63,842 nt of DNA from Candidatus Omnitrophota bacterium (GTDB lineage: Bacteria; Omnitrophota; Gorgyraeia; Tantalellales; Tantalellaceae), in the NCBI GenBank assembly GCA_034723315.1, contig JAYEOV010000058.1, forward strand, positions 1-63,842, in the 5' to 3' direction. The position numbers and the translations under genes were made by a program. Within the stretch, counting starts at the first letter, position 1, and the number at the start of each line of letters is the position of its first letter. Below the pieces are notes generated by a model. The model did no database searches, was not told where the DNA came from, and saw only the letters and a list, made by a program, of their open reading frames with translations. Shown here piece by piece: positions 60 to 20,751 of this stretch.

Positions 60-90
60 ACCCCTATCATTACAGACCCCTATCATTACA
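59..90. repeat. 16-bp tandem duplication gacccctatcattaca x2
   Basis: Identical units at 59-74 and 75-90; the second overlaps the stop codon of the 943-aa ORF. Confidence 0.9.
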
Positions 91-3237: not shown

Positions 3238-3834
3238 ATGAATAAAACAATATTTCCAGTTCTCATCATTCTGGCAAGTATTTTTATTGTTGCCGCGTTT
3301 TTCATGCCATGGGCCAGAGTAGCCACATCCGTCACGGGTGTATCAAAAGAGCTGACGGGATCTGTCTCAAAAACACCCATAGCAGGAAAAGTCGTGGGAG
3401 ACCTTACCAGGGTCACTGACGCTATCAGCGCGTTCGGCGACATAGAGATAAAGACCACTGTCCGGGGATACAAGATCCCTGCAATGGTCAACTCCGACAC
3501 CTCAAAGGTCGCCCTTTCTCTCGCGCAGATATTGTTCAAGGGCGCTGAAGGCATTGATAAGAAAAGCTACCTCGTTTATCTTTCGCCGATCCTCGCGATA
3601 CTCTGCGGACTGCTTGCGGCGCTCGGGATCAAAAGCAGGATCTACGTTCTGATCCTCATCATCATAAGCGGAGTGATCTCTACCGCGGGGTTATATAATC
3701 TGTATACTATGGACGTTAACAGCATGGCTGTGAAGATCACGATCGCGAAGGGCCTGTGGTACACAATGTACTCATTCCTCCTCATGTTCCTGGCGGGAAT
3801 AGCCTGGCAGGTGCTGGACTGGAAAAAAGCTTAA
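3238..3834 (+). CDS. Hypothetical integral membrane protein (198 aa, about 4 TM)
   Basis: GGAGG RBS before the ATG; N-terminal hydrophobic helix ending FFMPW and three C-terminal hydrophobic segments. Confidence 0.8.
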   Translation: MNKTIFPVLIILASIFIVAAFFMPWARVATSVTGVSKELTGSVSKTPIAGKVVGDLTRVTDAISAFGDIEIKTTVRGYKIPAMVNSDTSKVALSLAQILFKGAEGIDKKSYLVYLSPILAILCGLLAALGIKSRIYVLILIIISGVISTAGLYNLYTMDVNSMAVKITIAKGLWYTMYSFLLMFLAGIAWQVLDWKKA

Positions 3835-9720: not shown

Positions 9721-9851
9721 GCCGTCCTTCCTTACAGTCCCTATTTTACACTCAAACTCGCCACTTTCAAATAAAAAATAGGAACAGATGCCTTTTCTTA
9801 ATAACACGAAGGGCTCCGTCCCTGTTAATAAAAAGCTCCTTTCGCTGCTAG

Positions 9852-9872
9852 AACGGGGTTATGAAATGGGTT
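9852..9872 (+). repeat. Solo 21-bp end of MITE family A
   Basis: ctag|aacggggttatgaaatgggtt|ctaa matches the right end of the full 176-bp copies. Confidence 0.85.
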
Positions 9873-9899
9873 CTAAGAACGAAAAGAGCTTATGGATCA

Positions 9900-9976
9900 T
9901 GGCGCGCCTGCCCAGATTCGAACTGGGGGCCTACTGCTTAGGAGGCAGCCGCTCTATCCAGCTGAGCTACAGGCGC
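9900..9976 (-). tRNA. tRNA-Arg (anticodon CCT)
   Basis: Minus strand reads GCGCCTGTAGCTCAGCTGGATAGAGCGGCTGC-CTCCTAA-GCAGTAGGCCCCCAGTTCGAATCTGGGCAGGCGCGCCA: full cloverleaf, TTCGAAT T-loop, encoded CCA. Confidence 0.97.
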
Positions 9977-10002
9977 GTGGTGTTTAATTTGTTTCAAATA
10001 AA
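9957..10002. repeat. att direct repeat, left copy (5' 20 nt of the tRNA plus upstream DNA)
   Basis: tccagctgagctacaggcgcg-tg-gtgtttaatttgtttcaaataaa. Confidence 0.92.
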
Positions 10003-10050
10003 GGATTTAAAAATTTACCCTCTGAATCCCAATCCCGCCAATTTACCCCG

Positions 10051-10071
10051 GGTGTCCATATAGGTGTCCAT
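10051..10071. repeat. Putative integrase arm-type site (GGTGTCCAT x2)
   Basis: ggtgtccatataggtgtccat; a 19/21 match occurs near the other island end at 17145-17165. Confidence 0.65.
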
Positions 10072-10080
10072 CTCTTCCCG

Positions 10081-10106
10081 CCGTAGGAGCGGCCTCTGGC
10101 CGCGAA
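10081..10106 (+). repeat. REP-like unit of family C (GTAGGAGCGGCC...GGCCGCGAA)
   Basis: ccgtaggagcggcctctggccgcgaa matches the arms at 26110 and 47240. Confidence 0.75.
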
Positions 10107-10108
10107 CC

Positions 10109-10351
10109 CTACTCTATCATTCCCCGCCCTGACACATCAACCGCGTTCTTCTTATGATCCTGGGACAAATGAGCGTATCTTAATGTCATTGTCAGATCAG
10201 CATGTCCCAAAAGTTCTCTCACGGTATTCAGATCAACACCCGCCATCACCAGATGAGACGCAAAAGTATGTCTTAGATCGTGAAATCGAAAATTTATTAT
10301 ATTAAATTTCTTAAGCGCTGTAAAGAATGATTTCCTCACCGATATAAGCAA
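10109..10351 (-). pseudogene. Tyrosine recombinase/integrase C-terminal fragment
   Basis: [27 protein letters not shown]...MTLRYAH (H-x-x-R, H and Y catalytic residues); only 80 aa, N-terminal domains missing. Confidence 0.9.
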
Positions 10352-10373
10352 AAAAAACGCACTTTAATCTGCT

Positions 10374-11132
10374 CTAGTCCTCGGTAGTTACTTCCACTTT
10401 CGCGGAACGTATGTCCCCTTCTAAGCCTTTATATCTGAGCCATTCGAATTTTGGCTCGGCAGAATGCCAGGCATAGGCTTTCGGGAAAAAGACCTTCACT
10501 ATATCAAGAAGCCCAAGGCGGGGGTCGAGCTGCAGCTTATACGCGCGTCTCTTGCGGCCGTTAATTTTCACATCCTCTGTCTTGACTACACTGAGATCGA
10601 TGTTGTAGAATCCCGGCTCCTCGCTCACCATCTGTATCTTTGCTATTCTCCCTCCTTTCTCGAGCATCTTCTGGATATAAAACCCCAGGAGGAGCCTGTT
10701 CACAGCGTCCTTTGTGAACTTGAACTTTTTCGTGCGGGAGATCTTTTTAGGAATGTCCTCGTGGAGGCAGGTGACGCTCTTTTTGACGGGGTCGTAATCC
10801 TGTTTTTCGAGCCTGATCATGTTGCCGTCTTCGTCGAACACGCGTTTTACAAGTTTGAGCGGCGTGACGTTCTCTTCCGTGCTTTCGAATTCCATCTCCG
10901 CCTTCCAGGATATCGGCCCTTCGAAACTGGAATACACGCCTTCGCCCTTCTCCGTCAGTATATATACATCGCCCTCTTTCTTCCTTATCTCGGTCTCGGC
11001 TTCCCACCGCTTGCCGCCTTCCATATCGCGGCATACATAACCCGTCTTCACTACATCTTCCCCTATAGAGAAAACCGGGTTTGCTCCAGCAAGCATAAAA
11101 AAGCATAGTGATAGTATAAACAGTTTCTTCAT
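10374..11132 (-). CDS. Exported hypothetical protein (252 aa), beta-strand-rich, possibly DUF3108-like
   Basis: Signal peptide MKKLFILSLCFFMLAGANPVFS; alternating beta-strand pattern; family assignment tentative. Confidence 0.8.
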   Translation of the reverse strand: MKKLFILSLCFFMLAGANPVFSIGEDVVKTGYVCRDMEGGKRWEAETEIRKKEGDVYILTEKGEGVYSSFEGPISWKAEMEFESTEENVTPLKLVKRVFDEDGNMIRLEKQDYDPVKKSVTCLHEDIPKKISRTKKFKFTKDAVNRLLLGFYIQKMLEKGGRIAKIQMVSEEPGFYNIDLSVVKTEDVKINGRKRRAYKLQLDPRLGLLDIVKVFFPKAYAWHSAEPKFEWLRYKGLEGDIRSAKVEVTTED

Positions 11133-11141
11133 GATACAGTT

Positions 11142-11170
11142 ATTTTAACACTTTAGAAGGCCTACCGCAA
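11142..11170 (-). promoter_or_regulatory. Putative sigma70 promoter of the 252-aa gene
   Basis: TTGCGG-17 bp-TAAAAT on the minus strand; the -10 ends 9 nt before the ATG. Confidence 0.45.
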
Positions 11171-11207
11171 GAAAGCGCGGGGTCTGGAGGAATGCTTTAG
11201 ATCTTTT

Positions 11208-11618
11208 TTACCTGAACAATATATATTTCCTTGCGAAGAAATTCCAGATAACAACGATCATCGTGGCGACCAATTTCGAGAACAAATAGTGAAAATTCAC
11301 ATTTTCAGTAAAAAACCAGATAATATACTGGTTCAGGATAAGTCCCACAATTCCGATCACGATAAAAATCGAGATCTCAAAGTATCTGTTTTCGAATGTA
11401 CGCTTGTCAAAGACCCATCTGACATTCATGATATAGGCTGTTATTGATCCTAGTAAAAATGCCACTAAAGCCGCTGTTAAATAGTATATTTTGAATATTT
11501 CTACGAATACGATCAGCGAGCAATAATCCACTCCATACGCAAGAGCGCCCGACAAGACATAGCGGAATGCCTGTATAAAAACATTGTCTGTTGACTGTCT
11601 GAAAAGCTTCTCTACCAT
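11208..11618 (-). CDS. GtrA family membrane protein
   Basis: QAFRYVLSG, YIMNVRWVF, final WNFFARKYILFR; four TM helices. Confidence 0.9.
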   Translation of the reverse strand: MVEKLFRQSTDNVFIQAFRYVLSGALAYGVDYCSLIVFVEIFKIYYLTAALVAFLLGSITAYIMNVRWVFDKRTFENRYFEISIFIVIGIVGLILNQYIIWFFTENVNFHYLFSKLVATMIVVIWNFFARKYILFR

Positions 11619-11628
11619 ATTTGACTTG

Positions 11629-11649
11629 AACCCGTTTCATAACCCCGTT
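11629..11649 (-). repeat. Solo 21-bp end of MITE family A
   Basis: aacccgtttcataaccccgtt|ctag, abutting the TAG stop of the acyltransferase at 11650. Confidence 0.85.
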
Positions 11650-12411
11650 CTAGTATCTTTTTGCTGATTCCGGGGTGGTCTCTTCTTTGCTTTCTAAGGC
11701 TATCAGCAAAGCCTCTCTTACCCTGTTCGCTGCCGCTGAAGAGAATTCTCTATTCTCCAGAGGATAAAGTTCATCAAAACTGACCGGAGGCAGGATCTTT
11801 ACTTTTACTTTTCCGGGATGGATAAGTTTACTGCCTTTTCTTTGGATATTTATACTCCCGTCAATCGCTACAGGAACAACCCTGACCTTTGCTTCCTTAA
11901 GAAAGGAAAAACTAAAAGATTTAAATCTCTGCAGTTTTTCATTATAAGAACGTGTGCCTTCGGGGTATAAAACAATCGAATTTCCGGCTTTTATGAGCTC
12001 TATTACAAATTGATACGTTTTTAATGACTTTCTTATATTGGTTCTCTCTATTGGAATGTATTTCTGGAGCCTCATATATGTTCCAAAGATCGGAATATCA
12101 AAAAGCTCCTGTTTGGCCATAAATAAATACTGGCCCGGAATAGCCCTGAAAATAATAGGCCAGTCCAGATCACTCTGGTGACTGGACATATATACCACGG
12201 TTTCATTTTTAGGCAGGTTCTCCCGGCCTGTGATTTCCAGTTTGATACCGCCTATTTTCATGAGTGTCCAGGCCCAGAACTGCTCAGCTTTTCTGTACAT
12301 CTTCTTATTCTTAGGCCAGATTACGGAATCAAAAACAATGCCTAGTAGCACTATTACTATCCAGTCTATCCACCATATTACTGAATGTATGATCCTTATG
12401 AATTTCTTCAT
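11650..12411 (-). CDS. plsC: PlsC-type lysophospholipid acyltransferase
   Basis: HX4D motif SSHQSDLD, FMAKQELF, YPEGTRS, VVPVAIDG. Confidence 0.92.
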   Translation of the reverse strand: MKKFIRIIHSVIWWIDWIVIVLLGIVFDSVIWPKNKKMYRKAEQFWAWTLMKIGGIKLEITGRENLPKNETVVYMSSHQSDLDWPIIFRAIPGQYLFMAKQELFDIPIFGTYMRLQKYIPIERTNIRKSLKTYQFVIELIKAGNSIVLYPEGTRSYNEKLQRFKSFSFSFLKEAKVRVVPVAIDGSINIQRKGSKLIHPGKVKVKILPPVSFDELYPLENREFSSAAANRVREALLIALESKEETTPESAKRY

Positions 12412-12412
12412 C

Positions 12413-13156
12413 TTATCCCTTTAACTTCACAACAATATCTCTAAGTTTTCTGCCCACTTCCATGGAGGATTCTCTATTAATAGTATCATAATAATCTTCA
12501 AAATAAACGGGTTTGCCGATAGTTACCTTAACTTCTCCCGGGATCTTGAGCTTCCAGGCCCCTTTAGGCAAAACAGAAAAGGTCCCATCGATCGCTATCG
12601 GAATTACGGGCTTTCTGGACTGCTGGATGATAACAGAAGCTCCTCTTCCGAATTCATTTATATTCCCGTCTAATGTCAACTTCCCTTCCACGAAAATAAC
12701 AAAGGATCTGCCCGCTTTCAAGAGGTCTATTATCTTGTGGATCGTCTTGATCGACTTTTTCCTGTCTTTTCTGTCTAAAGAAAGAAAACCCGCCTTCGTG
12801 ACATGGCGTCCTATTACAGGAACTTTGAACAACTTCCTCATTATGACAAATTTAAAAGGGAAGGGCAAATATTTTAGCAAAATAAATATATCGATATAAC
12901 TTTGGTGATTCGGAGTGTAAATAACATTCGTGTCGCGTGGGATATTTTCCAGGCCTGAAACTTTTACCCTGATAAGCGAGACTTTGAGGATAAGAGAGCC
13001 CCAGAGTATTGCCCCTTTTTGATAAAATAATTTTTTCTTATCTTCATCTCTTATAAATGAACTAACTACATAAGAAACAGCATGTATGATTATGCAGGAG
13101 GAAAATACAAAAACCCAGAATACAGCGCTGTGAATAGCCCTGAATATCTCGATCAA
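12413..13156 (-). CDS. plsC: Second PlsC-type acyltransferase
   Basis: PNHQSYID (HX4D), FVEGK, VIPIAIDG; likely TTG start at 13156 overlapping the upstream TGA, behind GAGGA. Confidence 0.9.
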   Translation of the reverse strand: MIEIFRAIHSAVFWVFVFSSCIIIHAVSYVVSSFIRDEDKKKLFYQKGAILWGSLILKVSLIRVKVSGLENIPRDTNVIYTPNHQSYIDIFILLKYLPFPFKFVIMRKLFKVPVIGRHVTKAGFLSLDRKDRKKSIKTIHKIIDLLKAGRSFVIFVEGKLTLDGNINEFGRGASVIIQQSRKPVIPIAIDGTFSVLPKGAWKLKIPGEVKVTIGKPVYFEDYYDTINRESSMEVGRKLRDIVVKLKG

Positions 13157-13734
13157 TTCACTTCCTCTCTCTTTTTTATGCCCAGCCGGCACACAACACG
13201 GTCAGAACATAAGTGAACACCTATGTACAAAAGAATCGTGACTACCGCGACTTCCGCAGGTGGAACATACACGATCGAGCTTAAAAGAATAGCGCCTATA
13301 ATCCAATCTGCCTGATCCCAGGGGAACCAGGTTTTTCCAGACGGCTTGCCGAGCCTGCGCTTAATGAAGCTTTCTATTAAATCTCCCAAAAGGGCTCCTC
13401 CGCCCATTAAAGCGCCTATTAAGATAAAATTAAACTGACCATAATCGATTACGGTGTTATTTTTAAAAAAATCACTGTTAAAGAACAAAAGTGCCTGGAT
13501 GCCGGCTACAAGTATTCCCGTTATAACCCCGACCACAAGCCCTCTCCATGTTTTATTTTTCCCGAAAATTTCACGCCCATTTAATGTTTTCCCAGAATCA
13601 ACAGGCACCGCAAGCTTCTCCAGGGGTTTTTTAATTACTTCGGGCAAGGGAAGCCGGTTACCACAAGAAGCGTTATGGTTACCCAGGGCAGCCGGCAATA
13701 AATACCAAAGACAGGCAAATATTAGTTTGAGCAT
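13153..13734 (-). CDS. carS: CDP-archaeol synthase (CarS/DUF46) family CTP transferase
   Basis: PVDSGKTLNGREIFGKNKTWRG and GALLGDLIESFIKRRLG...G.....DQAD motifs; multi-TM. Confidence 0.85.
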   Translation of the reverse strand: MLKLIFACLWYLLPAALGNHNASCGNRLPLPEVIKKPLEKLAVPVDSGKTLNGREIFGKNKTWRGLVVGVITGILVAGIQALLFFNSDFFKNNTVIDYGQFNFILIGALMGGGALLGDLIESFIKRRLGKPSGKTWFPWDQADWIIGAILLSSIVYVPPAEVAVVTILLYIGVHLCSDRVVCRLGIKKREEVN

Positions 13735-13737
13735 GAT

Positions 13738-14319
13738 CTATTTGTTGAGCTTTCTGTAAACATGAGATATTCTCTGCAGCACCGTAAGGTGGGAAAAAGC
13801 GGCGATTATTACCAGTCCCCAAAATACCTGGTTTATGCAAAAGCCGGCCCCCAGTATTATTATCCTGACTGACCGGGGCATAAGTCCGACTTCACATTCT
13901 TGATCCAGACTCTCTGCTTTGGCCCTGGTATAACTCACGGCCAAAGATCCCACTATTGCAATTACAACCAATATAACGTAATCCGGCTCACCCAATTTTA
14001 AAAAGTGAAGTAATATCCCAAAGTAAATAACCGAATCCGCGTAACGATCAAGTACGGAATCCCAAAAATCGCCGAAAACTGTAGTCTTGCCTGTAGCCCG
14101 GGCTACACTTCCATCAAGAGCATCAAAAAAACCGGCGACCCAGATAAGTATACCTATGATCAAATAACTAAGTTCACCTTTAGCAATAAAAAAAGCGACA
14201 AGGCAGTTAACTAAAAGCCCCAGGAAGGTTACCTGGTTTGGAGTTATTTTTGTCTTTGCTAAAAGATTGCCCGGAGCTTGCGCAATTACCCGAATGAGTT
14301 TCCCTGTTGGATCGGACAT
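13738..14319 (-). CDS. CDP-alcohol phosphatidyltransferase, phosphatidylinositol(-phosphate) synthase-like
   Basis: TPNQVT, DALDGSVARATG...FGDFWDSVLDRYAD signature, SYTRAKAESL. Confidence 0.9.
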   Translation of the reverse strand: MSDPTGKLIRVIAQAPGNLLAKTKITPNQVTFLGLLVNCLVAFFIAKGELSYLIIGILIWVAGFFDALDGSVARATGKTTVFGDFWDSVLDRYADSVIYFGILLHFLKLGEPDYVILVVIAIVGSLAVSYTRAKAESLDQECEVGLMPRSVRIIILGAGFCINQVFWGLVIIAAFSHLTVLQRISHVYRKLNK

Positions 14320-14325
14320 TTTAAA

Positions 14326-15471
14326 TTACGCCTTAGTCCCTTTCCTTTTACCCTTAACTCTTTTTGCCTTAGCCCTTTTCTTCTTCCCTTTGCCGTAAGT
14401 CGCGATAAAATCCTCTACCATCTCGCGGGCTGTATTGTCATCATACTGGACGGGGGGTGACTTTTTGAAATACGCGCTGGGGCCTAAAAGCGCGCCTGAA
14501 ATTCCGTTATCTAACGCAATCTTCGCGCAACGGACCGCATCTATAACGACTCCAGCGGAATTGGGTGAGTCTTCCACCGAAAGCCTGCATTCTAAATTCA
14601 TGGGAAGATCTCCGAAATGTCTGCTTTCTATGCGCAAGAAACAAATCTTATTATCTTTCTGCCACGGCACATAGTCGCTCGGCCCGATATGAACATCATC
14701 TTTATCTATAGCAATACCCCTATTCTGTATCTGAGAGACAACTGCATTTGTTTTTGATATCTTTTTTGAGATAAGGCGCTCTTCTTCTTTCATGTTAAGA
14801 AAATCCGTATTGCCTCCGGTGTTAAGCTGGTAGGTGTGATCTACGGGCATACCTCTATCCAGGAATAGATTTGTCAGGATCCTGTGGAGGATCGTTGCCC
14901 CTACCTGTGACTTTATGTCGTCACCTATGATCGGCAGGCCCTTTTTCTTGAAGCGCGTCTGCCAGTATTCTTCTCTTGCAATAAAAACAGGAACACAGTT
15001 TATAAAAGCACATCCTGCATTTAATACCTGTTCGACATACCATTTTGTAGCTTCTTCGGAACCCACGGGCAAGTAACTAATAACCACATCGGTCTTTGTT
15101 TCCCTCAGAATGCCTGCTACATCATCGGTTTTCCCCGGGGCTTTCTTAACTATCTTCGATACATACTTGCCAAGCCCATCATGGGTCATCCCACGGTGGA
15201 CCTTAACCCCAAGACGGGGAACTTTGGCGAAAACAGCAGCATTGTTAGGTTTCGCATAAATAGCTTCGCTTAGATCTTTGCCTACCTTATTTTTATCAAT
15301 ATCAAAAGCAGCTGAAAACTCTATATCTTTTATGTGATAACCGCCCAGGTTAACGTGCATCAGTCCCGGTATAAGATCTTTATCCTTTGCATTCTTATAG
15401 TATTTCACTCCCTGGACCAGCGAAGAAGCGCAATTGCCGACTCCGATGATCGCAACTTTAATTTTAGACAT
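14326..15471 (-). CDS. ino1: Inositol-3-phosphate synthase (myo-inositol-1-phosphate synthase)
   Basis: [54 protein letters not shown]; Lys-rich C-terminal tail. Confidence 0.96.
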
Positions 15472-15499
15472 AACTTTATGCTCCTCTATTTTTATGGAT

Positions 15500-15745
15500 C
15501 TATACTAAAGACGCGCATCTGTCTTCTATATATTTTGTCACATCTCCAACAGTTAACATTTTTTCAGCTTCTTCACTCGGTATCTCAATATCAAAATCCT
15601 CTTCCAGTATCACAACCATCTCAACAATATCAAGTGAATCTGCACCTAGATCGTCTATAATTCTTGCCTCTTCTTTCACATTTTGATCTTTTAAGTCAAG
15701 ACGGTTGGCAAAAAGGCCCTTTATTTTACCCAGGATATCCGACAT
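15500..15745 (-). CDS. acpP: Acyl carrier protein
   Basis: [14 protein letters not shown] phosphopantetheine motif; start at ATG 15745 behind GAGGAGG. Confidence 0.93.
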
Positions 15746-15790
15746 ATTTCCTCCTCTAAACCATTGGAACACAAATTAATTGGAGCAATC

Positions 15791-15818
15791 ATTATACAAT
15801 GATAAAATTCTAAATCAA
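15791..15818 (-). promoter_or_regulatory. Putative promoter of the lipid cassette
   Basis: TTGATT-16 bp-TATAAT on the minus strand; an adjacent tandem agatatatataac x2 (15819-15844) could be an operator. Confidence 0.4.
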
Positions 15819-15932
15819 AGATATATATAACAGATATATATAACATAGGGTCAAGAGTTAATTTAGACAAAAAAATGAAAATAATTCAGTTCAGTCTTCA
15901 AAATATGCGAGAGAAGAAAAAGGAATCTACAC

Positions 15933-16973
15933 ATGAAGAAAAAGATCAGTAAAATGCCTGTAAAGTATTTAAAATTTTTAACAAACGTTAAAAATCAAAT
16001 ACAACGTGCCCAAATAAAGGCAGCTGTATACGTTAACCGCGAATTAATAGCACTTTATTGGAATATTGGCAAACAGATTTTACAACTCCAGAAACAGGAA
16101 GGATGGGGAAAGTCAATTGTGGAACAGTTATCAAAAGACCTGCGCCGTGAATTCCCCTCTCTAAAGGGTTTTTCCCCACGAAATTTATGGGAAATGCGCA
16201 GTTTTTACGATGTTTATAAAGATGCTATAAATCTGCAACAACTTGTTGCAGAAATTCCCTGGGGACATAATCTGGCCCTTATTCATAAAATCAAGCATAA
16301 CACTGAAAGACTATGGTATATCCGTAAAACCATAGAGCATGGGTGGAGTCGTAATGTTTTGATCCATCAAATTGAAAGTAACGCATATCACCGGTCAGGT
16401 AAGGCTATTACAAATTTTAGAAAAACATTGCCACCCATCCAGTCCGATCTCGCCCACCAAATAATAAAAGACCCTTACAAATTTGACTTTTTAACCATAG
16501 AAGATAATAGACGAGAAAAAGAACTAGAGAATAATCTTATCCAACATCTCGAACAATTCTTACTCGAGTTAGGTGTGGGGTTCGCGTTTGTTGGCCGACA
16601 AAAGCACCTTGAAATCGGAGATCAAGATTTTTACATTGATCTGCTTTTTTATCATACTCGTTTACACGCCTATATTGTTATAGAGTTAAAGAATAGTGAA
16701 TTCAAACCCGAATATGCCGGCAAGATGAATTTTTATCTAAACGCAGTAGATGATCTATTCAAACATCCACAAGACCACCCAAGTATTGGAATAATATTAT
16801 GCAAAACAAAAAACAAAGTCGTTGTTGAATACACTCTGCGTGATACACATAAACCTATCGGTGTTTCCGAATACAAACTAACTAAGAAACTTCCTAAAAA
16901 CTTCAAAGGAAGCTTGCCGACAATAGAAGAACTGGAACATGAACTTTCCCAAAAAAAAGAGAAAAAGATATGA
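15933..16973 (+). CDS. YhcG/DUF1016 family PD-(D/E)XK nuclease-domain protein
   Basis: LYWNIG, GWG..IVEQLS.DL, GFSPRNL, KDPYKFDFL, FLLELGVGFAFVG, IDLLFYH, VIELK, PSIGIILC. Confidence 0.93.
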   Translation: MKKKISKMPVKYLKFLTNVKNQIQRAQIKAAVYVNRELIALYWNIGKQILQLQKQEGWGKSIVEQLSKDLRREFPSLKGFSPRNLWEMRSFYDVYKDAINLQQLVAEIPWGHNLALIHKIKHNTERLWYIRKTIEHGWSRNVLIHQIESNAYHRSGKAITNFRKTLPPIQSDLAHQIIKDPYKFDFLTIEDNRREKELENNLIQHLEQFLLELGVGFAFVGRQKHLEIGDQDFYIDLLFYHTRLHAYIVIELKNSEFKPEYAGKMNFYLNAVDDLFKHPQDHPSIGIILCKTKNKVVVEYTLRDTHKPIGVSEYKLTKKLPKNFKGSLPTIEELEHELSQKKEKKI

Positions 16974-17137
16974 AATGCGCAATATACACGAGGGTCAGTA
17001 CAGATAATTAAGCCGAGAAAGAATACAATTCAGGTGAATCGCAGGAAGAGAAGATCAGGTCCTACGGCTACTACACCTTAAATCTCAGTAATATTGGTCT
17101 TGACTTGGGGAGTATTTCAGACCATCAGTTTGAATAG
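16970..17137 (+). pseudogene. Serine recombinase N-terminal relic with in-frame stop
   Basis: ATGA overlap with the YhcG stop; translates MKCAIYTRVSTDN*AEKEYNSGESQEEKIRSY (YxRVST catalytic motif); similarity is lost after about 17065. Confidence 0.85.
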
Positions 17138-17144
17138 GATATGA

Positions 17145-17165
17145 GGTGTTCATATAGGTGTCTAT
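17145..17165. repeat. Putative integrase arm-type site, right end
   Basis: ggtgttcatataggtgtctat, 19/21 identical to 10051-10071, same orientation. Confidence 0.65.
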
Positions 17166-17369
17166 AAGAGCCCTCAAATCGTGGAAATTGCCATTAGGCG
17201 CTACAAACAAAAAATCGCTGTAACTAGTTATAAAATAACGTAATTATAGCGATTTAAAGGGTTCGCGAAAAGTGTATGGTTCGGCTAAGAAGGCAGCCGC
17301 TTGAATGAAACCACGACTTACGGAACGATAGCGAACGTAAGTCGTTTGGTCAAATTTATGCAAAGCCTG

Positions 17370-17415
17370 TCCAGCTGAGCTACAGGCGCGCTGTGTTTAA
17401 TTTGTTTCAAATAAA
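17370..17415. repeat. att direct repeat, right copy (displaced 5' fragment of tRNA-Arg)
   Basis: tccagctgagctacaggcgcg-ct-gtgtttaatttgtttcaaataaa. Confidence 0.92.
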
Positions 17416-17432
17416 AGTGCGGGATTAATAAT

Positions 17433-18194
17433 TTATTCCAAAATATTTTTTATTACCATAGCCTTCACCTGCTCTAAGGAAAATGGCTTGGTAATATAAT
17501 CGTCCGCTCCTTCCTTCAGAGCAACTGCAATAATATCGTCATCTTTAACACCTGATATCATTATGACAGGAATATTTTTATTAAATTTTTTTATGTCACC
17601 TAAAACCTCTAAACCATTGCGCCCGGGCATCGCGATGTCCAGAAAAATAAGAGATATTCTCTCCTTCCGTACGATCTCCATGGTCTTTCGGGGATCGGTT
17701 GTGGCAATAACATTATAACCACTTTTCTCCAGAAAACCCTTGATAACCTTACAGACACCTTCATCATCGTCAATGACCAGGATATTTGGTATATGTTCTT
17801 TATCCTCAATCTTTGGGTGCGCGTATTTTTTCAACAACTTATTTATCCTAAACTTCAAAGTATCTAAGGGGGCTGTTTTTAGTATGTATTCAGCGGCGCC
17901 TTTTCCCTTGGCCTTGGTAATAGTTTCAGCATCGTATCCATAACCGGTAAGGATAGCAATAGGAATTCCGGAATTTTGTTCCCGCATCTTCTCCAATATT
18001 TCCATTGCATCTTCACCGGGTAATTTTATATCTAAAAGCACCAGATCCGGGGTATTAGCACTGAATTCCTCAAGGCCTGCCGCTCCTGTCAGCGCCGTAT
18101 AAACCTCATAACCTTCTTTCTTTAGAACGATTTTAATGTAATCCAGCGTTCCCGGATTGTCGTCGATAGCCAATATCTTTACTTTATTTTTCAT
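17433..18194 (-). CDS. Tandem receiver-domain protein (REC-REC, no output domain)
   Basis: Two intact REC motif sets: AIDD/LLDIKLP/LTG/ILK and VIDDD/FLDIAMP/ISG/TKPF; AAGGAG RBS. Confidence 0.9.
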   Translation of the reverse strand: MKNKVKILAIDDNPGTLDYIKIVLKKEGYEVYTALTGAAGLEEFSANTPDLVLLDIKLPGEDAMEILEKMREQNSGIPIAILTGYGYDAETITKAKGKGAAEYILKTAPLDTLKFRINKLLKKYAHPKIEDKEHIPNILVIDDDEGVCKVIKGFLEKSGYNVIATTDPRKTMEIVRKERISLIFLDIAMPGRNGLEVLGDIKKFNKNIPVIMISGVKDDDIIAVALKEGADDYITKPFSLEQVKAMVIKNILE

Positions 18195-18253
18195 GGTTTT
18201 ATCTCCTTAAATCTGTAATAAAAAAATTATTTTTCACTGTCGATCAACATTAA

Positions 18254-18874
18254 CTACCTACTCTGTCCTTTCACAAATCGTTCACCCTTTTTTAATTCAT
18301 TCGCATACTTACGCAACTTGAAACTTGCCGTTCTTAACTCGGGGCGAACAACCAACGCTATTATAAGCCCGCCGGCAAGACCGCTTAAACAATCCAAACC
18401 TAAATCTCTCAATTCAAAGCTTCTATTCATCACAAAGAGTTGAAGTGTTTCGTCTAAAAATGCACAGAAAAATATTACCACACTTACCCAAAAATAAAGC
18501 ATCTGAGTTGTAATACTATGCCTCAATGCCCTGAATAACAGTAAACTTAAAATCCCATATTCGAGAAAATGGAGACGATCCCACGCCTTCTCTACCATAC
18601 TCAGCACCAAAAAACATGTCAAAAATATCCCTATAAACCAGATATAAGCGCTTATTTCTGCCCTGCCTTTTTTTCTTTTTAAAAAAAGATATATTAGCAA
18701 AATCATGAATGTTGAACCAAACAGTACCCACATCAAAACCTTTATTACAAAATCAGCATCGTGAGCTATTGAATAAAGTTTCAACCGTCCCGGCAAGAAC
18801 AGTGTCAACAGTACCAATGCGAAAAATACGCTTGCAATTGTCCAATCTACTATTATTTTACTGCGATAGCGCAC
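18254..18874 (-). CDS. VanZ family membrane protein
   Basis: DRLHFLEYGIL, AFLDETLQLFVMNRSFELRDL..D; GTG start. Confidence 0.8.
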   Translation of the reverse strand: MRYRSKIIVDWTIASVFFALVLLTLFLPGRLKLYSIAHDADFVIKVLMWVLFGSTFMILLIYLFLKRKKGRAEISAYIWFIGIFLTCFLVLSMVEKAWDRLHFLEYGILSLLLFRALRHSITTQMLYFWVSVVIFFCAFLDETLQLFVMNRSFELRDLGLDCLSGLAGGLIIALVVRPELRTASFKLRKYANELKKGERFVKGQSR

Positions 18875-18902
18875 AAAAGCCTCCGTGAAGCATTTACTCC
18901 AG

Positions 18903-19078
18903 AACCCATTTCATGACCCTGTTCGTTACGAGGCTGAGCGAAAAAGCCATTGACAAGGCCTGAGGGGCAAAATGCCCGGAAACGTAGCCGGTGCGCTACG
19001 TTGAGGACATTTTGCCCCGAAAACGCGGTCAATGGGTTTTGCAGCCAGCCACAGTAGAACAGGGTTATGAAATGGGTT
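18903..19078 (+). mobile_element. MITE family A, complete 176-bp copy with CCAG duplication
   Basis: ccag|aacccatttcatgaccctgtt ... aacagggttatgaaatgggtt|ccag; 21-bp terminal inverted repeats. Confidence 0.9.
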
Positions 19079-19178
19079 CCAGTAAGTCCCCGCAAGATTT
19101 TTAATTTTAAACTTTTAACTTTTAATTTTAAAATCTCTTATACCAAATTCGCTTCCAACTGTAAAGAAAGTTTTGGAA

Positions 19179-19934
19179 TCATGCCGCGGCGCTTACGATA
19201 CGACCGTATTCACGGTCCATAATCTCGTGTACATGCTCCGCCATCTCTTTCCTGGACCTCCCTTCGGGATACACCGGCGGAAGAACATGCATTTCAGCGT
19301 CGACAACGGGATACCCCAGCACCTGCCAGATATGCGGGAGAAGCGTCATGTCGCCGTACCAGCATACGGTAGGCCTTCCCGGGACTTCATTATAACGCGT
19401 CAGAACCGGAATAACCGGAAGGTTCCCGAACGTAGCCGCCTCGAAGGAAGTGGATTTAAAAGGAAGAATGCCGTTATTACCGTCAGTACTTGTCCCTTCC
19501 GGGTAAACTATAAGGTACATCCCCCGCTTCATGGTTTTCGAAAAATCCCGCAATGCCTTTCTGGACGCGGATCTCGATATCCTGTCAACCCATACGGGGT
19601 GGGTCAACGCGATCATCTGTCCGATAACGGGCCATTTTGCGATCTCCGTCGTGGAGGTATAACGCAGCGGAAAAACCGTTCCATGCGTGATTATATCAAT
19701 ATAACCGAGATGATTTGAAACCACCAGGCCGGCGGGAACATCCTGAATATCACCGGATATCCTGATGCGCAGGCCTATGATCTTCGCAATACCTTTGGCC
19801 CATACGCGGAGAAGACCGGATATTTCCCTCCTCCCTCTCCAGCCGCCGAAATGGTACGGCATCGACCAGATAATGACGAACAAGGTGAACAGCACAAGCG
19901 CCGTGAACCGGTACAAGCGGAGAAAAAATGCCAT
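19179..19934 (-). CDS. olsA: Lyso-ornithine-lipid O-acyltransferase-like protein (PlsC superfamily)
   Basis: SNHLGYID, YPEGTSTDG..ILPFKST, VCWYGDM; directly downstream of the OlsB-like gene; start ATG 19934. Confidence 0.75.
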   Translation of the reverse strand: MAFFLRLYRFTALVLFTLFVIIWSMPYHFGGWRGRREISGLLRVWAKGIAKIIGLRIRISGDIQDVPAGLVVSNHLGYIDIITHGTVFPLRYTSTTEIAKWPVIGQMIALTHPVWVDRISRSASRKALRDFSKTMKRGMYLIVYPEGTSTDGNNGILPFKSTSFEAATFGNLPVIPVLTRYNEVPGRPTVCWYGDMTLLPHIWQVLGYPVVDAEMHVLPPVYPEGRSRKEMAEHVHEIMDREYGRIVSAAA

Positions 19935-19938
19935 GATA

Positions 19939-20751
19939 TCAATCTTGTTTTTCTTTGTAGCGGAAATGCCGCAAATAGCGTTGTGGGACATTATTGATAT
20001 CGACCAGTATGAAGAAATCGATCGTCCCGAATTCTCTGTCCAGCGCGGGTTCCCCGCAGATGCGCGCCCCCAGCCTGAGATATCCTTTGAATATCGGCGG
20101 GATGTGTTTTCTTAGCGCGTCTTTATCTGCCAGGATTTTCTTTATTTCATGATCGGGAGGCTTTTTCAGCACGAACCCCGGACGAGGCTTAACGGAAAAA
20201 TCGGTGTGTACAGAATAGGACTGGCGTAAATATTCGTATAAAGCCCATCCTGTCTTCGGATCTGTTTCTTCAAGGCTCACGCATCCGAGCATGTAAGAAA
20301 GTTTCGCCCTGTTCAACAACTCGGAGATCGCGCCCCAGAGAAGAGCGACTACAGCGCCTGATCTAAACTCGGGAGACACGCACGTGCGCCCCAGCTCTAT
20401 ACACTTGTCCGCGATCCTGTAGAGTCCCCTTATTTGATACTCTCTTGACGAATAAAAACCTTTAGCGGAATTCGCGACACTCCCGAGATGGGCCCGATAC
20501 GTGCCGATAACTCGCCCGGTATTTTTTTTCATCACCAGCAAGTGGAGACAGTATTCATCAAATTCGTCAAAGTCAATGCCGTATCTTTCGGAAATCTCAA
20601 GGCCCCTCCCCTGTTCGATGTTAAATACCTCGTAACGCAAACGCTGGGCCTTTTCGACTTCTTCGTGATTTTCCGCCAGCTTGACCATGAACTGTCCGGT
20701 CTCTACCAGCACGGGAGGTATCATAATATTTTTTGGCACGTTTGTGATCAT
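19939..20751 (-). CDS. olsB: GNAT-family ornithine N-acyltransferase-like protein
   Basis: AQRLRYEVF, DEFDEYCLHLLV, IGTYR, ELGRTCV.PEFRSG, PPIFKGYLRLGA.ICGEPA.D.EF.T.D. Confidence 0.85.
   Translation of the reverse strand: MITNVPKNIMIPPVLVETGQFMVKLAENHEEVEKAQRLRYEVFNIEQGRGLEISERYGIDFDEFDEYCLHLLVMKKNTGRVIGTYRAHLGSVANSAKGFYSSREYQIRGLYRIADKCIELGRTCVSPEFRSGAVVALLWGAISELLNRAKLSYMLGCVSLEETDPKTGWALYEYLRQSYSVHTDFSVKPRPGFVLKKPPDHEIKKILADKDALRKHIPPIFKGYLRLGARICGEPALDREFGTIDFFILVDINNVPQRYLRHFRYKEKQD

What the first reader, a model, noticed from the sequence alone, without database searches (positions are those of the whole stretch)
13153..13734. Archaeal-type CarS family enzyme embedded in fatty-acyl rather than isoprenoid machinery
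Seen: CarS/DUF46 motifs (PVDxG...GKNKTWRG; GDL.ESFIKRR.G...DQ.D), with its stop overlapping the start of an acyltransferase. Established: CarS is the archaeal CDP-archaeol synthase acting on digeranylgeranylglyceryl phosphate, while bacteria normally use CdsA. Seen: no GGGP synthase, DGGGP synthase or G1P dehydrogenase in the window. Inference, two options. (a) This CarS homologue was repurposed as a CDP-diacylglycerol synthase for ester lipids, a hybrid across the lipid divide. (b) More speculatively, it activates scavenged archaeal ether lipid, which would be relevant if the organism is an Omnitrophota-type predator or episymbiont of archaea.
Basis: partly seen in the sequence, partly recalled or inferred. 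Interest (0 to 1): 0.8.

Follow-up and report, generated by a model that had tools for sequence, protein, structure and literature searches.

The report
Archaeal-type lipid activator in bacterial inositol-lipid cassette
An Omnitrophota bacterium carries, on a small mobile island, a tightly packed operon that joins two archaeal-type head-group enzymes (a CarS-family CTP-transferase and an inositol-phosphate transferase) to two bacterial fatty-acyl transferases. It most likely makes an inositol phospholipid and is a natural mix of enzymes from both sides of the "lipid divide".

Summary
ORF 13153-13734 (minus strand, 193 aa) is a CarS-family protein: Pfam PF01864 E 9e-32, only significant fold match ApCarS 5GUF, all family motifs intact. 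It overlaps the start of a PlsC-type acyltransferase.

It is one gene of a block, MIPS / AIPS-PIPS-like CDP-alcohol transferase / CarS / acyltransferase / acyltransferase (+GtrA, DUF3108), which is kept in every Omnitrophota locus recovered that spans it (17 of 21; the other four are cut at a contig end). The best reading is a self-contained cassette: acyltransferases make phosphatidate, CarS makes the CDP-activated lipid, and the transferase adds inositol-1-phosphate.

Independent support that CarS-family enzymes work with acyl lipids comes from PgpA-CarS fusions beside PgsA- and Cls-like genes in CPR bacteria, and from FakA-PlsY-PlsY beside PgsA-like-CarS in a Woesearchaeota locus.

In this genome the cassette lies in a low-GC island bounded by tRNA-Arg repeats, with an integrase remnant. 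Relatives carry it at other tRNA genes, so it looks accessory and mobile rather than a replacement for CdsA. Three other Omnitrophota genomes do encode cdsA.

Substrate and product are inferred, not shown. Whether this genome also has cdsA could not be tested.

The parts
13153..13734 (-). CarS-family CTP:lipid-phosphate cytidylyltransferase (193 aa), about five transmembrane helices. Inferred reaction: phosphatidate + CTP -> CDP-diacylglycerol.
   Evidence: PF01864 E 8.9e-32; 5GUF E 1.6e-9. Foldseek gives only 5GUF, TM 0.62/0.74. Motifs P44-D46, G58-K61-T62-R64-G65, G117-D118..S122-F123-K125-R126-R127 and D140-Q141-D143 are invariant in 24 Omnitrophota homologues and shared with archaeal CarS. 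NCBIfam equivalog NF003114 scores 121.5, below the cut-off of 148.
13738..14319 (-). CDP-alcohol phosphatidyltransferase of the inositol-phosphate-using subgroup (AIP/PIP synthase-like, 193 aa).
   Evidence: PF01066 E 4.8e-16. Best NCBIfam hit is archaetidylinositol phosphate synthase at 165.6 bits (cut-off 180), then bacterial PIP synthase at 123.2. PDB: AF2299 2e-17, R. salmoninarum PIPS 4e-16, M. tuberculosis PgsA1 1e-14. The motif DALDGSVAR...GDFWDSVLD is intact.
14326..15471 (-). myo-inositol-1-phosphate synthase (381 aa).
   Evidence: PF01658 E 7.9e-35; TIGR03450 E 3e-145, 483.9 bits. 83-96% identical across Omnitrophota loci.
12413..13192 (-). PlsC-family acyltransferase AT1 (HX4D at H96). 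Its start overlaps the CarS stop.
   Evidence: PF01553 E 2.4e-26; TIGR00530 83.7 bits, below the cut-off; HQSYID motif. Adjacent to CarS in every Omnitrophota locus that extends downstream of it.
11650..12411 (-). PlsC-family acyltransferase AT2 (HX4D at H78).
   Evidence: PF01553 E 7.8e-31; TIGR00530 1-acylglycerol-3-phosphate O-acyltransferase domain 106.9 bits, above the cut-off of 102.95; HQSDLD motif.
11208..11618 (-). GtrA-like small membrane protein, usually part of the block; role unknown (lipid translocation is a guess).
   Evidence: PF04138 E 6.6e-22. Found next to the block in 16 of the Omnitrophota loci, in varying order.
10374..11132 (-). Secreted DUF3108-like protein with an N-terminal signal-like sequence, often at the end of the block.
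   Evidence: PF11306 E 8.4e-5, below the cut-off. Homologue present in 11 loci. Its GC3 of 0.625 resembles the host rather than the rest of the block.
15500..15772 (-). Acyl carrier protein, upstream of MIPS in this genome only.
   Evidence: TIGR00517 93.5 bits, above the cut-off of 70.45. Not found upstream of MIPS in other loci, apart from a 30-aa fragment in L003. GC3 0.31. A promoter-like site lies at 15818-15791 (weak, since the site count is not above chance).
9900..9976 (-). tRNA-Arg(CCT), one end of the island.
   Evidence: ARAGORN.
10109..10351 (-). Remnant of a tyrosine recombinase (integrase): only the C-terminal catalytic segment, 80 aa.
   Evidence: HP1 integrase E 3.7e-11; XerC-like E 2.4e-10, matching residues 222-274 of 292.
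17367..17415 (.). Direct repeat of 9954-10002 (94% identical). It is a copy of the first 24 nt of tRNA-Arg plus its upstream region, and forms the other end of a ~7.4 kb element.
   Evidence: the repeat finder family D1; alignment and sequence.
11100..19000 (.). Low-GC stretch (0.34-0.45 against 0.49-0.55 around it) that holds the operon, a YhcG-type nuclease, a double response regulator and a VanZ-like gene.
   Evidence: Composition profile; GC3 per gene; Pfam.

Best explanation
The gene encodes a CarS-family integral-membrane CTP-transferase. It is the activating step of a self-contained, horizontally mobile cassette for an inositol phospholipid.

Proposed sequence of reactions:
1. The two PlsC-type acyltransferases acylate glycerol phosphate to phosphatidic acid (inferred).
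2. The CarS homologue condenses that lipid phosphate with CTP to give a CDP-activated lipid, most likely CDP-diacylglycerol (inferred from family chemistry and context).
3. MIPS makes inositol-1-phosphate from glucose-6-phosphate (by family assignment).
4. The AIPS/PIPS-like CDP-alcohol transferase joins the two to give phosphatidylinositol phosphate (inferred).
5. A phosphatase not identified here would give phosphatidylinositol.

GtrA and the secreted DUF3108 protein may move or hold the product in the envelope (a guess).

The two head-group enzymes are of the archaeal type and the acyl enzymes of the bacterial type, so the pathway is a natural hybrid. It is probably an accessory route beside the ordinary CdsA pathway, not its replacement.
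For: Family and fold.

Conserved block: MIPS-CAPT-CarS-AT1-AT2 occurs in every recovered Omnitrophota locus that spans it (17 of 21; the rest are cut at a contig end), at 69-94% CarS identity, with 1-6 nt gaps or overlaps between genes. The members co-vary in identity.

Neighbour identities: the CAPT falls in the inositol-phosphate subgroup. Both acyltransferases keep HX4D, and AT2 passes the LPAAT domain cut-off.

CarS-family genes tied to acyl-lipid enzymes elsewhere:
- PgpA-CarS fusion proteins in CPR.
- Among the genes flanking CarS in 16 CPR loci, 11 are CDP-alcohol transferases and 8 are PLD/Cls-like.
- In Woesearchaeota locus L032, FakA-PlsY-PlsY lies beside PgsA-like-CarS.

Accessory and mobile character:
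- Low-GC island, tRNA-Arg, integrase remnant and 49-nt direct repeats.
- The same block lies at different tRNA genes in L001, L003 and L019.
- Identities among relatives are mosaic.
- cdsA (K00981), plsC and plsX/plsY (the latter two in two of the three) are listed for all three Omnitrophota genomes whose KO tables could be read; none of these has carS or MIPS KOs (PMC10066038 supplement).

Expression hint: metatranscriptome contigs 94-96% identical to CarS and CAPT segments.
Against: No substrate or product was measured.
- Characterised archaeal CarS strongly prefers DGGGP over phosphatidic acid and did not complement an E. coli cdsA mutant (Jain 2014, as reviewed in PMC9385802). Use of diacyl substrate therefore requires a changed lipid groove, which I did not analyse.
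- No PIP phosphatase is in the block.
- The rest of this genome was not available, so GGGPS/DGGGPS or cdsA elsewhere cannot be excluded or shown.
- The acyltransferases could act on something other than glycerol phosphate, for example lyso-lipids or the inositol ring.
- The CPR and DPANN contexts are also compatible with promiscuous enzymes acting on scavenged lipids.
- The metatranscriptome contigs may contain DNA.
Confidence: 0.55

Rival explanations
1. It is a true CDP-archaeol synthase. The carrier genomes would make isoprenoid ether lipid (DGGGP-like) with genes elsewhere. The cassette would then make archaetidylinositol phosphate, and the acyltransferases would serve another step.
For: Both head-group enzymes score best against archaeal families: CarS, and AIP synthase at 165.6 against 123.2 bits for bacterial PIPS. 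Characterised CarS prefers geranylgeranyl chains. FCB bacteria with GGGPS/DGGGPS are known (PMC7852524).
Against: The 64 kb window has no GGGPS, UbiA or G1PDH. In every Omnitrophota locus that extends downstream, the gene is translationally coupled to acyltransferases, not prenyltransferases. The score falls below NCBI's CarS equivalog cut-off. The mobile cassette carries acyl enzymes as its only core-lipid enzymes.
Confidence: 0.12
2. The CarS homologue has replaced CdsA and is the cell's only, housekeeping CDP-diacylglycerol synthase. This is the strong form of the reader's option (a).
For: No CdsA is in the window or in any of the 21 Omnitrophota loci. In CPR loci the CarS-like gene sits in what looks like the main PG/cardiolipin head-group cluster.
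Against: In this genome the gene lies in a compositionally foreign, tRNA-flanked island with an integrase remnant. It sits at different loci in relatives. The Omnitrophota clade is narrow: CarS identity of at least 62%, and only one or two clusters at 50% identity. Other Omnitrophota encode cdsA. The gene is wired to MIPS and an inositol-specific transferase, not to pssA/pgsA.
Confidence: 0.1
3. It re-activates scavenged archaeal ether lipid (archaetidic acid) taken from prey or hosts.
For: One Omnitrophota lineage (Velamenicoccus archaeovorus) is reported to attack archaea. The nearest CarS relatives are in DPANN and CPR episymbionts, whose loci carry head-group genes but no core-lipid genes.
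Against: The cassette carries its own two acyltransferases. The named carriers are Gorgyraia/Tantalellaceae with genomes of about 2 Mb that are nearly complete, not Velamenicoccia. The window encodes arginine, lysine/DAP, NAD, pantothenate and folate synthesis genes. No lipase, PLD or lipid-kinase gene is in the block.
Confidence: 0.04
4. The CTP-transferase activates some other lipid phosphate, such as an ether-linked or mono-acyl glycerophosphate or a polyprenyl phosphate. The product would be an inositol-phosphate-bearing glycolipid or anchor rather than ordinary PI, which GtrA then helps translocate.
For: GtrA-family proteins usually accompany polyprenyl-phosphate-linked sugar pathways, and GtrA is conserved with the block. 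A secreted DUF3108 protein is attached. ElbD-type ether-lipid genes are common in Omnitrophota MAGs: 93 of 267 (PMC11868695).
Against: No glycosyltransferase is in the block. Two LPAAT-like enzymes are the simplest source of phosphatidic acid. AIPS/PIPS-type enzymes use CDP-diradylglycerol.
Confidence: 0.12

Closest known systems
Archaeal CDP-archaeol synthase CarS (A. fulgidus AF1740; A. pernix structure 5GUF)
   Same: Same Pfam family, the same five-helix fold (TM 0.62/0.74) and the same conserved motifs: PxD, GKxKTxxG, GDxxxSFxKRR and DQxD. It presumably uses the same CTP + lipid phosphate -> CDP-lipid + PPi chemistry. As in archaea, it sits next to a CDP-alcohol transferase.
   Different: The host is bacterial. 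Identity to ApCarS is 25%, and the score is below NCBI's equivalog cut-off. It forms its own 100%-supported clade. It is coupled to acyltransferases rather than prenyltransferases, and it is carried on a mobile island. The substrate is probably diacyl rather than digeranylgeranyl (inferred).
Bacterial CDP-diacylglycerol synthase CdsA (PF01148; T. maritima structure 4Q2E, not examined here)
   Same: The proposed reaction and role are the same, supplying CDP-DAG to a CDP-alcohol transferase. The C-terminal CTP-transferase motif is shared (36-bit partial hit).
   Different: The family and architecture differ: 193 aa, about five helices (by my own knowledge CdsA has about nine helices in ~270 aa). 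There is no structural hit to CdsA and no PS01315-type signature.
Mycobacterial / Bacteroides PIP-dependent phosphatidylinositol pathway (MIPS + PIP synthase + PIP phosphatase; PMC9246714)
   Same: MIPS is clustered with a CDP-alcohol transferase of the inositol-phosphate type, so the predicted route is CDP-lipid + Ins-1-P -> PIP.
   Different: Those clusters rely on the housekeeping CdsA. They contain no CTP-transferase and no pair of PlsC genes. Here no PIP phosphatase is recognisable, and the transferase scores closer to archaeal AIP synthase.
Archaeal archaetidylinositol phosphate pathway (M. thermautotrophicus AIP synthase)
   Same: Both combine a CarS-type activator with an AIPS-type transferase and MIPS-derived inositol-1-phosphate.
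   Different: The core-lipid enzymes encoded beside them are bacterial acyltransferases.
PgpA-CarS fusion proteins and CarS-PgsA-Cls clusters of CPR bacteria
   Same: These are also bacterial CarS-family members placed inside otherwise bacterial head-group pathways.
   Different: They form a different clade (33-46% identity) with a different head group (PG/cardiolipin rather than inositol), and no acyltransferases are adjacent.

Membership tests
CarS / PF01864 (CDP-archaeol synthase family) | Profile match above the family's curated threshold over most of the domain | tested here: met
   PF01864 scores 110.9 bits against a cut-off of 22, covering residues 43-188 of the protein and positions 29-172 of the 175-position profile.
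CarS / PF01864 (CDP-archaeol synthase family) | Five-helix membrane fold of ApCarS | tested here: met
   The AF2 model (pLDDT 90) matches only 5GUF: probability 1.00, TM 0.62/0.74, rmsd 2.9 A.
CarS / PF01864 (CDP-archaeol synthase family) | Conserved polar-cavity motifs: PxD loop, GKxKTxxG, GDxxxSFxKRR, DQxD | tested here: met
   The motifs align residue for residue with 5GUF and with archaeal sequences. They are invariant in 24 Omnitrophota homologues.
CDP-2,3-bis-(O-geranylgeranyl)-sn-glycerol synthase, functional equivalog (NCBIfam NF003114) | Score at or above the curated equivalog cut-off | tested here: not met
   121.5 bits against a cut-off of 148.
CDP-2,3-bis-(O-geranylgeranyl)-sn-glycerol synthase, functional equivalog (NCBIfam NF003114) | Acts on DGGGP; genome also makes DGGGP (G1PDH, GGGPS, DGGGPS) | tested here: inconclusive
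   None of these genes is in the 64 kb window or in the 21 related loci. The rest of the genome was not available, and enzyme activity cannot be tested here.
CdsA / PF01148 (bacterial CDP-diacylglycerol synthase) | Full-length profile match and CdsA signature (S-x-FKR-x4-KD-x5-PGHGG-x-DR-x-D) | tested here: not met
   Only a partial 36-bit hit was found, to profile positions 169-229 of 264. No signature was found anywhere in the window or loci. There was no Foldseek hit to a CdsA structure.
Inositol-phosphate-using CDP-alcohol transferases (AIP/PIP synthases), for the neighbouring gene 13738-14319 | DX2DGX2AR...GX3DX3D motif and closest similarity to AIPS/PIPS rather than PgsA/PssA | tested here: met
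   The motif is present. Scores are AIPS 165.6 and PIPS 123.2 bits against pgsA 41 and pssA 23. Top PDB hits are AF2299 and the PIPS structures. Both equivalog cut-offs (180 and 170) are narrowly missed.
PlsC/LPAAT acyltransferases, for genes 11650-12411 and 12413-13192 | PF01553 domain with the catalytic HX4D motif | tested here: met
   PF01553 E 7.8e-31 and 2.4e-26. HQSDLD and HQSYID motifs are present. AT2 passes TIGR00530 and AT1 does not. Acceptor specificity is not testable here.
tRNA-targeted integrative genomic island | tRNA gene at one end, partial tRNA direct repeat at the other, integrase gene, atypical composition | tested here: met
   tRNA-Arg at 9900-9976. Repeat 9954-10002 / 17367-17415, 94% identical. 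An integrase C-terminal remnant, so the element is probably no longer mobile. GC and GC3 are well below the flanks. Caveats: the low-GC stretch runs about 1.6 kb past the repeat, and DUF3108 inside the element has host-like GC3.

The most novel reading that the evidence does not exclude
The cassette is a naturally occurring, laterally mobile hybrid pathway across the lipid divide. In it, archaeal-derived CarS and AIP-synthase enzymes have been retuned to fatty-acyl glycerophosphate, or accept both acyl and isoprenoid substrates. Carrier bacteria would thus gain an inositol phospholipid, or even mixed-type lipids, in a single transfer. CarS-family enzymes, rather than CdsA, would then also be the CDP-lipid synthases of large parts of the CPR and of some DPANN lineages that build ester lipids from scavenged fatty acids.
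Probability: 0.3. Interest if true: 0.8.

Novelty: new variant of a known kind. Interest (0 to 1): 0.6.

Why it matters
CarS and CdsA are usually presented as the archaeal and bacterial halves of one step that 'upholds the lipid divide' (PMC9385802). This work shows three things:
- The CarS family is widespread in bacteria: Omnitrophota, several CPR lineages, Clostridia and Bacteroidota.
- In at least three independent contexts it is wired to fatty-acyl or bacterial head-group enzymes.
- In Omnitrophota it travels as a compact mobile cassette together with an archaeal-type inositol-phosphate transferase.

If the substrate is indeed phosphatidic acid, substrate specificity in this family is more plastic than the two characterised archaeal enzymes suggest. 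That bears on models of mixed membranes and on automated annotation, since these proteins are currently named 'CDP-archaeol synthase' in bacterial MAGs. It would also add a third genetic route to bacterial inositol lipids. The five-gene block is small enough to test directly in E. coli.

Tried and rejected
- Looked up the exact protein in public assemblies: not on record.
- Searched for a second CTP-transferase (CdsA) in the window and in all 55 loci, using the PROSITE-like signature and a permissive search with the CarS HMM: none found. This says nothing about the rest of the genome.
- Could not establish whether cdsA is present in the same genome. Instead I read the KO tables in the supplement of Seymour et al. 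2023. Only three genomes are in the stored part, and none of them is a carrier of the cassette.
- The Ren et al. 2017 CarS structure paper is not held, so I did not compare lipid-groove residues.
- ACP as part of the operon: rejected, because it is not conserved.
- A conserved gene upstream of MIPS, for example a PIP phosphatase: rejected, because the upstream genes vary (tadA-like deaminase, AsmA/DUF748, kinases, transporters).
- NJ tree: the sister group of the Omnitrophota clade is unresolved (19-38% bootstrap), so no donor lineage is claimed. All sequences in that tree were recovered mainly through the IFGKNKTW peptide pattern, so sampling is biased.
- Promoter and terminator scan: counts are not above chance and were used only as a hint.
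- Ten literature searches found no paper on bacterial CarS homologues in the held library.
Full report
**1. The observation**

The minus-strand ORF 13153..13734 (193 aa, ATG start) is real and contains the quoted motifs.
- It matches Pfam PF01864 (CarS-like) at E 8.9e-32. It matches the CdsA family PF01148 only partially and weakly, through the shared C-terminal CTP-transferase motif.
- The only related solved structure by sequence is A. pernix CarS, 5GUF (E 1.6e-9).
- A confident AlphaFold2 model (pLDDT 90, pTM 0.85) has 5GUF as its sole significant Foldseek match (TM 0.62/0.74, rmsd 2.9 A) and no match to CdsA.
- The polar-cavity motifs (P44-x-D46; G58..K61-T62-x-R64-G65; G117-D118...S122-F123-x-K125-R126-R127; D140-Q141-x-D143) are invariant in 24 homologues. 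They align with archaeal CarS.
- The CarS stop overlaps the next gene, a PF01553 acyltransferase, by 40 nt (GTG start) or 4 nt (TTG start, as in relatives).
- Fifty window ORFs were scanned against Pfam (53 of the 63 ORFs of at least 70 aa in all). None is a GGGPS/PcrB, UbiA-type DGGGPS, G1P dehydrogenase or full CdsA.

**2. The organism**

- The closest proteins (62-95% identity) are all from Omnitrophota MAGs, where NCBI and JGI name them 'CDP-archaeol synthase'.
- Named carriers are Ca. Tantalella remota and Ca. Makaraimicrobium thalassicum. Both belong to Gorgyraia; Tantalellales; Tantalellaceae, with genomes of about 2 Mb that are nearly complete. One further carrier belongs to family CAIMPC01, also Gorgyraia.
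- The window is ordinary bacterial chromosome. It encodes sigma-70, PPDK, three aminoacyl-tRNA synthetases, DnaE, RecO, and genes for arginine, lysine/DAP, NAD, pantothenate and folate synthesis.
- Related DNA occurs in marine sediment, vent, seep and freshwater metagenomes.

**3. The unit the gene belongs to**

On the minus strand, with gaps of 1-31 nt or overlaps, lie:
- ACP (15772-15500)
- myo-inositol-1-phosphate synthase (15471-14326)
- a CDP-alcohol phosphatidyltransferase (14319-13738)
- CarS (13734-13153)
- acyltransferase AT1 (13192-12413)
- acyltransferase AT2 (12411-11650)
- GtrA (11618-11208)
- a secreted DUF3108-like protein (11132-10374)

A scan of one genome per species gave 55 loci.
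- Twenty-one are Omnitrophota; some carry placeholder names such as 'Planctomycetia'.
- The order MIPS-CAPT-CarS-AT1-AT2 is kept in all 17 loci that span it, and the four truncated loci show the expected genes up to the contig end. GtrA and DUF3108 are usually attached.
- The members diverge in step, at 52-96% identity.
- ACP is not conserved there, and the genes upstream of MIPS vary. The conserved core is therefore the five genes plus GtrA/DUF3108.

The neighbouring genes are identified as follows.
- The transferase carries the DX2DGX2AR...GX3DX3D motif.
- It scores best against archaetidylinositol phosphate synthase (165.6 bits), then bacterial PIP synthases (about 123), and far above PgsA or PssA.
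- Its closest solved relatives are AF2299, Renibacterium PIPS and M. tuberculosis PgsA1.
- Both acyltransferases keep HX4D, and AT2 passes the LPAAT domain cut-off.

**4. Most likely function**

Putting the parts together gives a self-contained route:
- The acyltransferases make phosphatidic acid.
- CarS makes the CDP-activated lipid.
- MIPS makes inositol-1-phosphate.
- The transferase makes phosphatidylinositol phosphate.

Every step after family assignment is inference. The phosphatase that would finish PI is not in the block.

The weak point is the substrate. As reviewed in PMC9385802, characterised archaeal CarS prefers DGGGP to phosphatidic acid and did not rescue an E. coli cdsA mutant. 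Crude-membrane work, on the other hand, found little discrimination between ether and ester bonds or between glycerol stereochemistries.

**5. Independent evidence that CarS-family enzymes work with acyl or bacterial-type lipids**

The family is large: 1791 clusters at 50% identity with E<=1e-3. It is not confined to archaea.

(i) CPR bacteria.
- Proteins of about 325-360 aa are fusions of phosphatidylglycerophosphatase A (PF04608) to a CarS domain.
- Among the genes flanking CarS in 16 CPR loci, 11 are CDP-alcohol transferases, 8 are PLD/cardiolipin-synthase-like and 2 are free-standing PgpA.
- Together these form the bacterial PG/cardiolipin head-group pathway, with CarS in the CdsA position.

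(ii) Woesearchaeota locus L032.
- A fatty-acid kinase FakA (E 2e-87) and two PlsY glycerol-3-phosphate acyltransferases (E 1e-19 and 6e-32 to 5XJ5) lie back to back with a PgsA-like transferase and CarS.

(iii) Clostridia, Oscillospiraceae, Bacteroides and a Flavobacteriaceae genome.
- These form a separate clade with 100% bootstrap support.
- They carry a different operon with DgkA-like, CDP-alcohol transferase, PS decarboxylase, a UbiA prenyltransferase and a PPDK-like protein.
- This operon could concern prenylated lipid and was not followed further.

In a neighbour-joining tree the Omnitrophota sequences are monophyletic (100%). They sit among DPANN and CPR sequences without a resolved sister group (19-38%).

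**6. Accessory and mobile**

Composition:
- The block ACP..GtrA has GC 0.37-0.44 and GC3 0.31-0.49. Other window genes have GC3 0.56-0.68.
- The low-GC stretch runs from about 11.1 to 19.0 kb.

Island boundaries:
- Just beyond DUF3108 lie an 80-aa C-terminal remnant of a tyrosine recombinase (10109-10351; HP1 integrase E 3.7e-11) and tRNA-Arg(CCT) (9900-9976).
- A 49-nt direct repeat, 94% identical, comprises the first 24 nt of that tRNA plus its upstream region. It recurs at 17367-17415.
- The repeats bracket a ~7.4 kb element that holds the whole operon and a YhcG-type nuclease.

Relatives:
- The same block abuts tRNA-Ser(GCT) in L001, tRNA-Thr/Tyr in L003 and tRNA-Ser(GGA) in L019.
- Its GC3 is far below the flanks in M. 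thalassicum too (0.28-0.34 against 0.53-0.69) but equals the flanks in other lineages.
- Identities are mosaic. Against L001 the block is 88-94% identical but DUF3108 only 75%. Against L003, MIPS is 96%, CarS 88% and AT1 72%.
- These features indicate lateral exchange of the cassette among Omnitrophota.

Relation to CdsA:
- The three Omnitrophota genomes whose KO lists are retrievable all have cdsA (K00981) and plsC, two of them also plsX/plsY, and none has carS or MIPS KOs.
- I therefore favour 'pathway-specific accessory enzyme' over 'replacement of CdsA'.
- Whether this genome has cdsA could not be tested.

**7.

Option (a) is partly supported, with the amendments above. Option (b), scavenged archaeal lipid, is disfavoured:
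- The cassette brings its own acyltransferases.
- The carriers are not the archaeovorous Velamenicoccia.
- The organism is biosynthetically well equipped.
- The scavenging idea fits the CPR and DPANN loci better, because they have head-group genes without core-lipid genes.

**8. Comparison with what is known**

- The protein is a member of the CarS Pfam family by profile, fold and motifs.
- It fails NCBI's functional equivalog cut-off (121.5 against 148 bits), so it should not be filed as a proven CDP-archaeol synthase. It is not a CdsA.
- The cassette resembles the mycobacterial and Bacteroides PIP-dependent PI pathway (PMC9246714) in using MIPS plus a PIP-type synthase. It differs in carrying its own CTP-transferase and two PlsC genes and in lacking a recognisable PIP phosphatase.
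- I found no paper in the held library that discusses bacterial CarS homologues.
- Villanueva et al. note that CarS is absent from Cloacimonetes and that CdsA can substitute for it.
- The genes are already annotated by name in databases. What is new is the context and what it implies.

**9. Expression**

Marine-sediment metatranscriptome assemblies contain short contigs 94-96% identical to parts of CarS (13205-13423) and of the transferase (13884-14136). This is weak evidence that relatives transcribe these genes, because DNA carry-over cannot be excluded.

**10. Verdict**

I rate it a new variant of a known kind: a CarS-family enzyme in a mobile bacterial inositol-lipid cassette with acyltransferases. 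Interest is 0.6. Confidence in the proposed mechanism is about 0.55, limited by the absence of any substrate data and of the rest of the genome.

Noticed in passing
window 9849-19079: The operon lies in a low-GC island. Its features are tRNA-Arg(CCT) at 9900-9976, an integrase C-terminal remnant at 10109-10351, and a 49-nt direct repeat at 9954-10002 / 17367-17415. A second repeat pair (24 of 25 nt) at 9849-9873 / 19055-19079 brackets the whole low-GC stretch; its meaning is unexplained (tandem or nested insertions?).
   Followed up: partly
window 19179-20751 (minus strand): An overlapping gene pair for ornithine-lipid synthesis. The OlsB-like N-acyltransferase (PF13444; NF052555 E 2e-49) is followed by an OlsA-like O-acyltransferase (NF052553 E 2.5e-34). 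Both score below the equivalog cut-offs. The pair also occurs near the cassette in L004.
   Followed up: partly
window 29542-30267 (minus strand): A single ORF fuses a prokaryotic diacylglycerol/undecaprenol kinase domain (PF01219) to a PAP2 lipid phosphatase domain (PF01569).
   Followed up: no
L033:1251-2228, L034:9380-10393, L036:2080-3168, L043:9434-10495 (CPR bacteria): These are PgpA (phosphatidylglycerophosphatase A)-CarS fusion proteins. Their neighbours are CDP-alcohol transferases and PLD/cardiolipin-synthase-like genes. Several 320-350 aa proteins with a C-terminal CarS domain are also among the family representatives (P0152, P0171, P0202, P0268, P0269; domains not scanned).
   Followed up: partly
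L032:6747-10387 (Ca. Woesearchaeota MAG): FakA fatty-acid kinase and two tandem PlsY acyltransferases lie back to back with a PgsA-like transferase and CarS. This is a bacterial-type acyl-lipid route next to CarS in a DPANN archaeon. The MAG's taxonomy was not verified.
   Followed up: partly
L045, L048-L050, L052-L055 (gut Clostridia, Oscillospiraceae, Bacteroides MAGs); L051 (Flavobacteriaceae): A separate CarS-like clade in which the GD of the GDxxxSF motif is replaced by ELPNSF. Among the genes flanking CarS in these nine loci are seven hits each to DgkA-like (PF01219), CDP-alcohol transferase, PS decarboxylase and UbiA-family prenyltransferase, and six to a PPDK-like enzyme. It may be a route to a prenylated or ether PE-type lipid.
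   Followed up: no
window 15933-16973 (plus strand): A YhcG/DUF1016 PDDEXK nuclease gene lies inside the island, on the strand opposite the operon. It is followed by a protein with two response-regulator receiver domains by sequence appearance (17433-18194; not scanned) and a VanZ-like protein (18254-18874). All are low in GC.
   Followed up: no
window 86-2917 (minus strand) and 3238-3834 (plus strand): A 943-aa ORF and a 198-aa ORF have no Pfam match at E<=1e-3.
   Followed up: no
L001, L003 versus window 10374-15471: Amino-acid identities across the cassette are mosaic. In L003, MIPS is 96%, CAPT 94%, CarS 88%, AT1 72%, AT2 74% and GtrA 92%. In L001 the block is 88-94% but DUF3108 is 75%. 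This suggests recombination within the cassette between lineages.
   Followed up: partly
L021:9339-10004 and the equivalent genes in L024, L029, L030 (CPR): In L021 a PHP-domain phosphoesterase gene sits between an AIPS/PIPS-like CDP-alcohol transferase and CarS; L024, L029 and L030 have an ORF in the same position (PHP matched three CPR flanking genes in all). It is a candidate for the missing lipid-phosphate phosphatase in those lineages.
   Followed up: no
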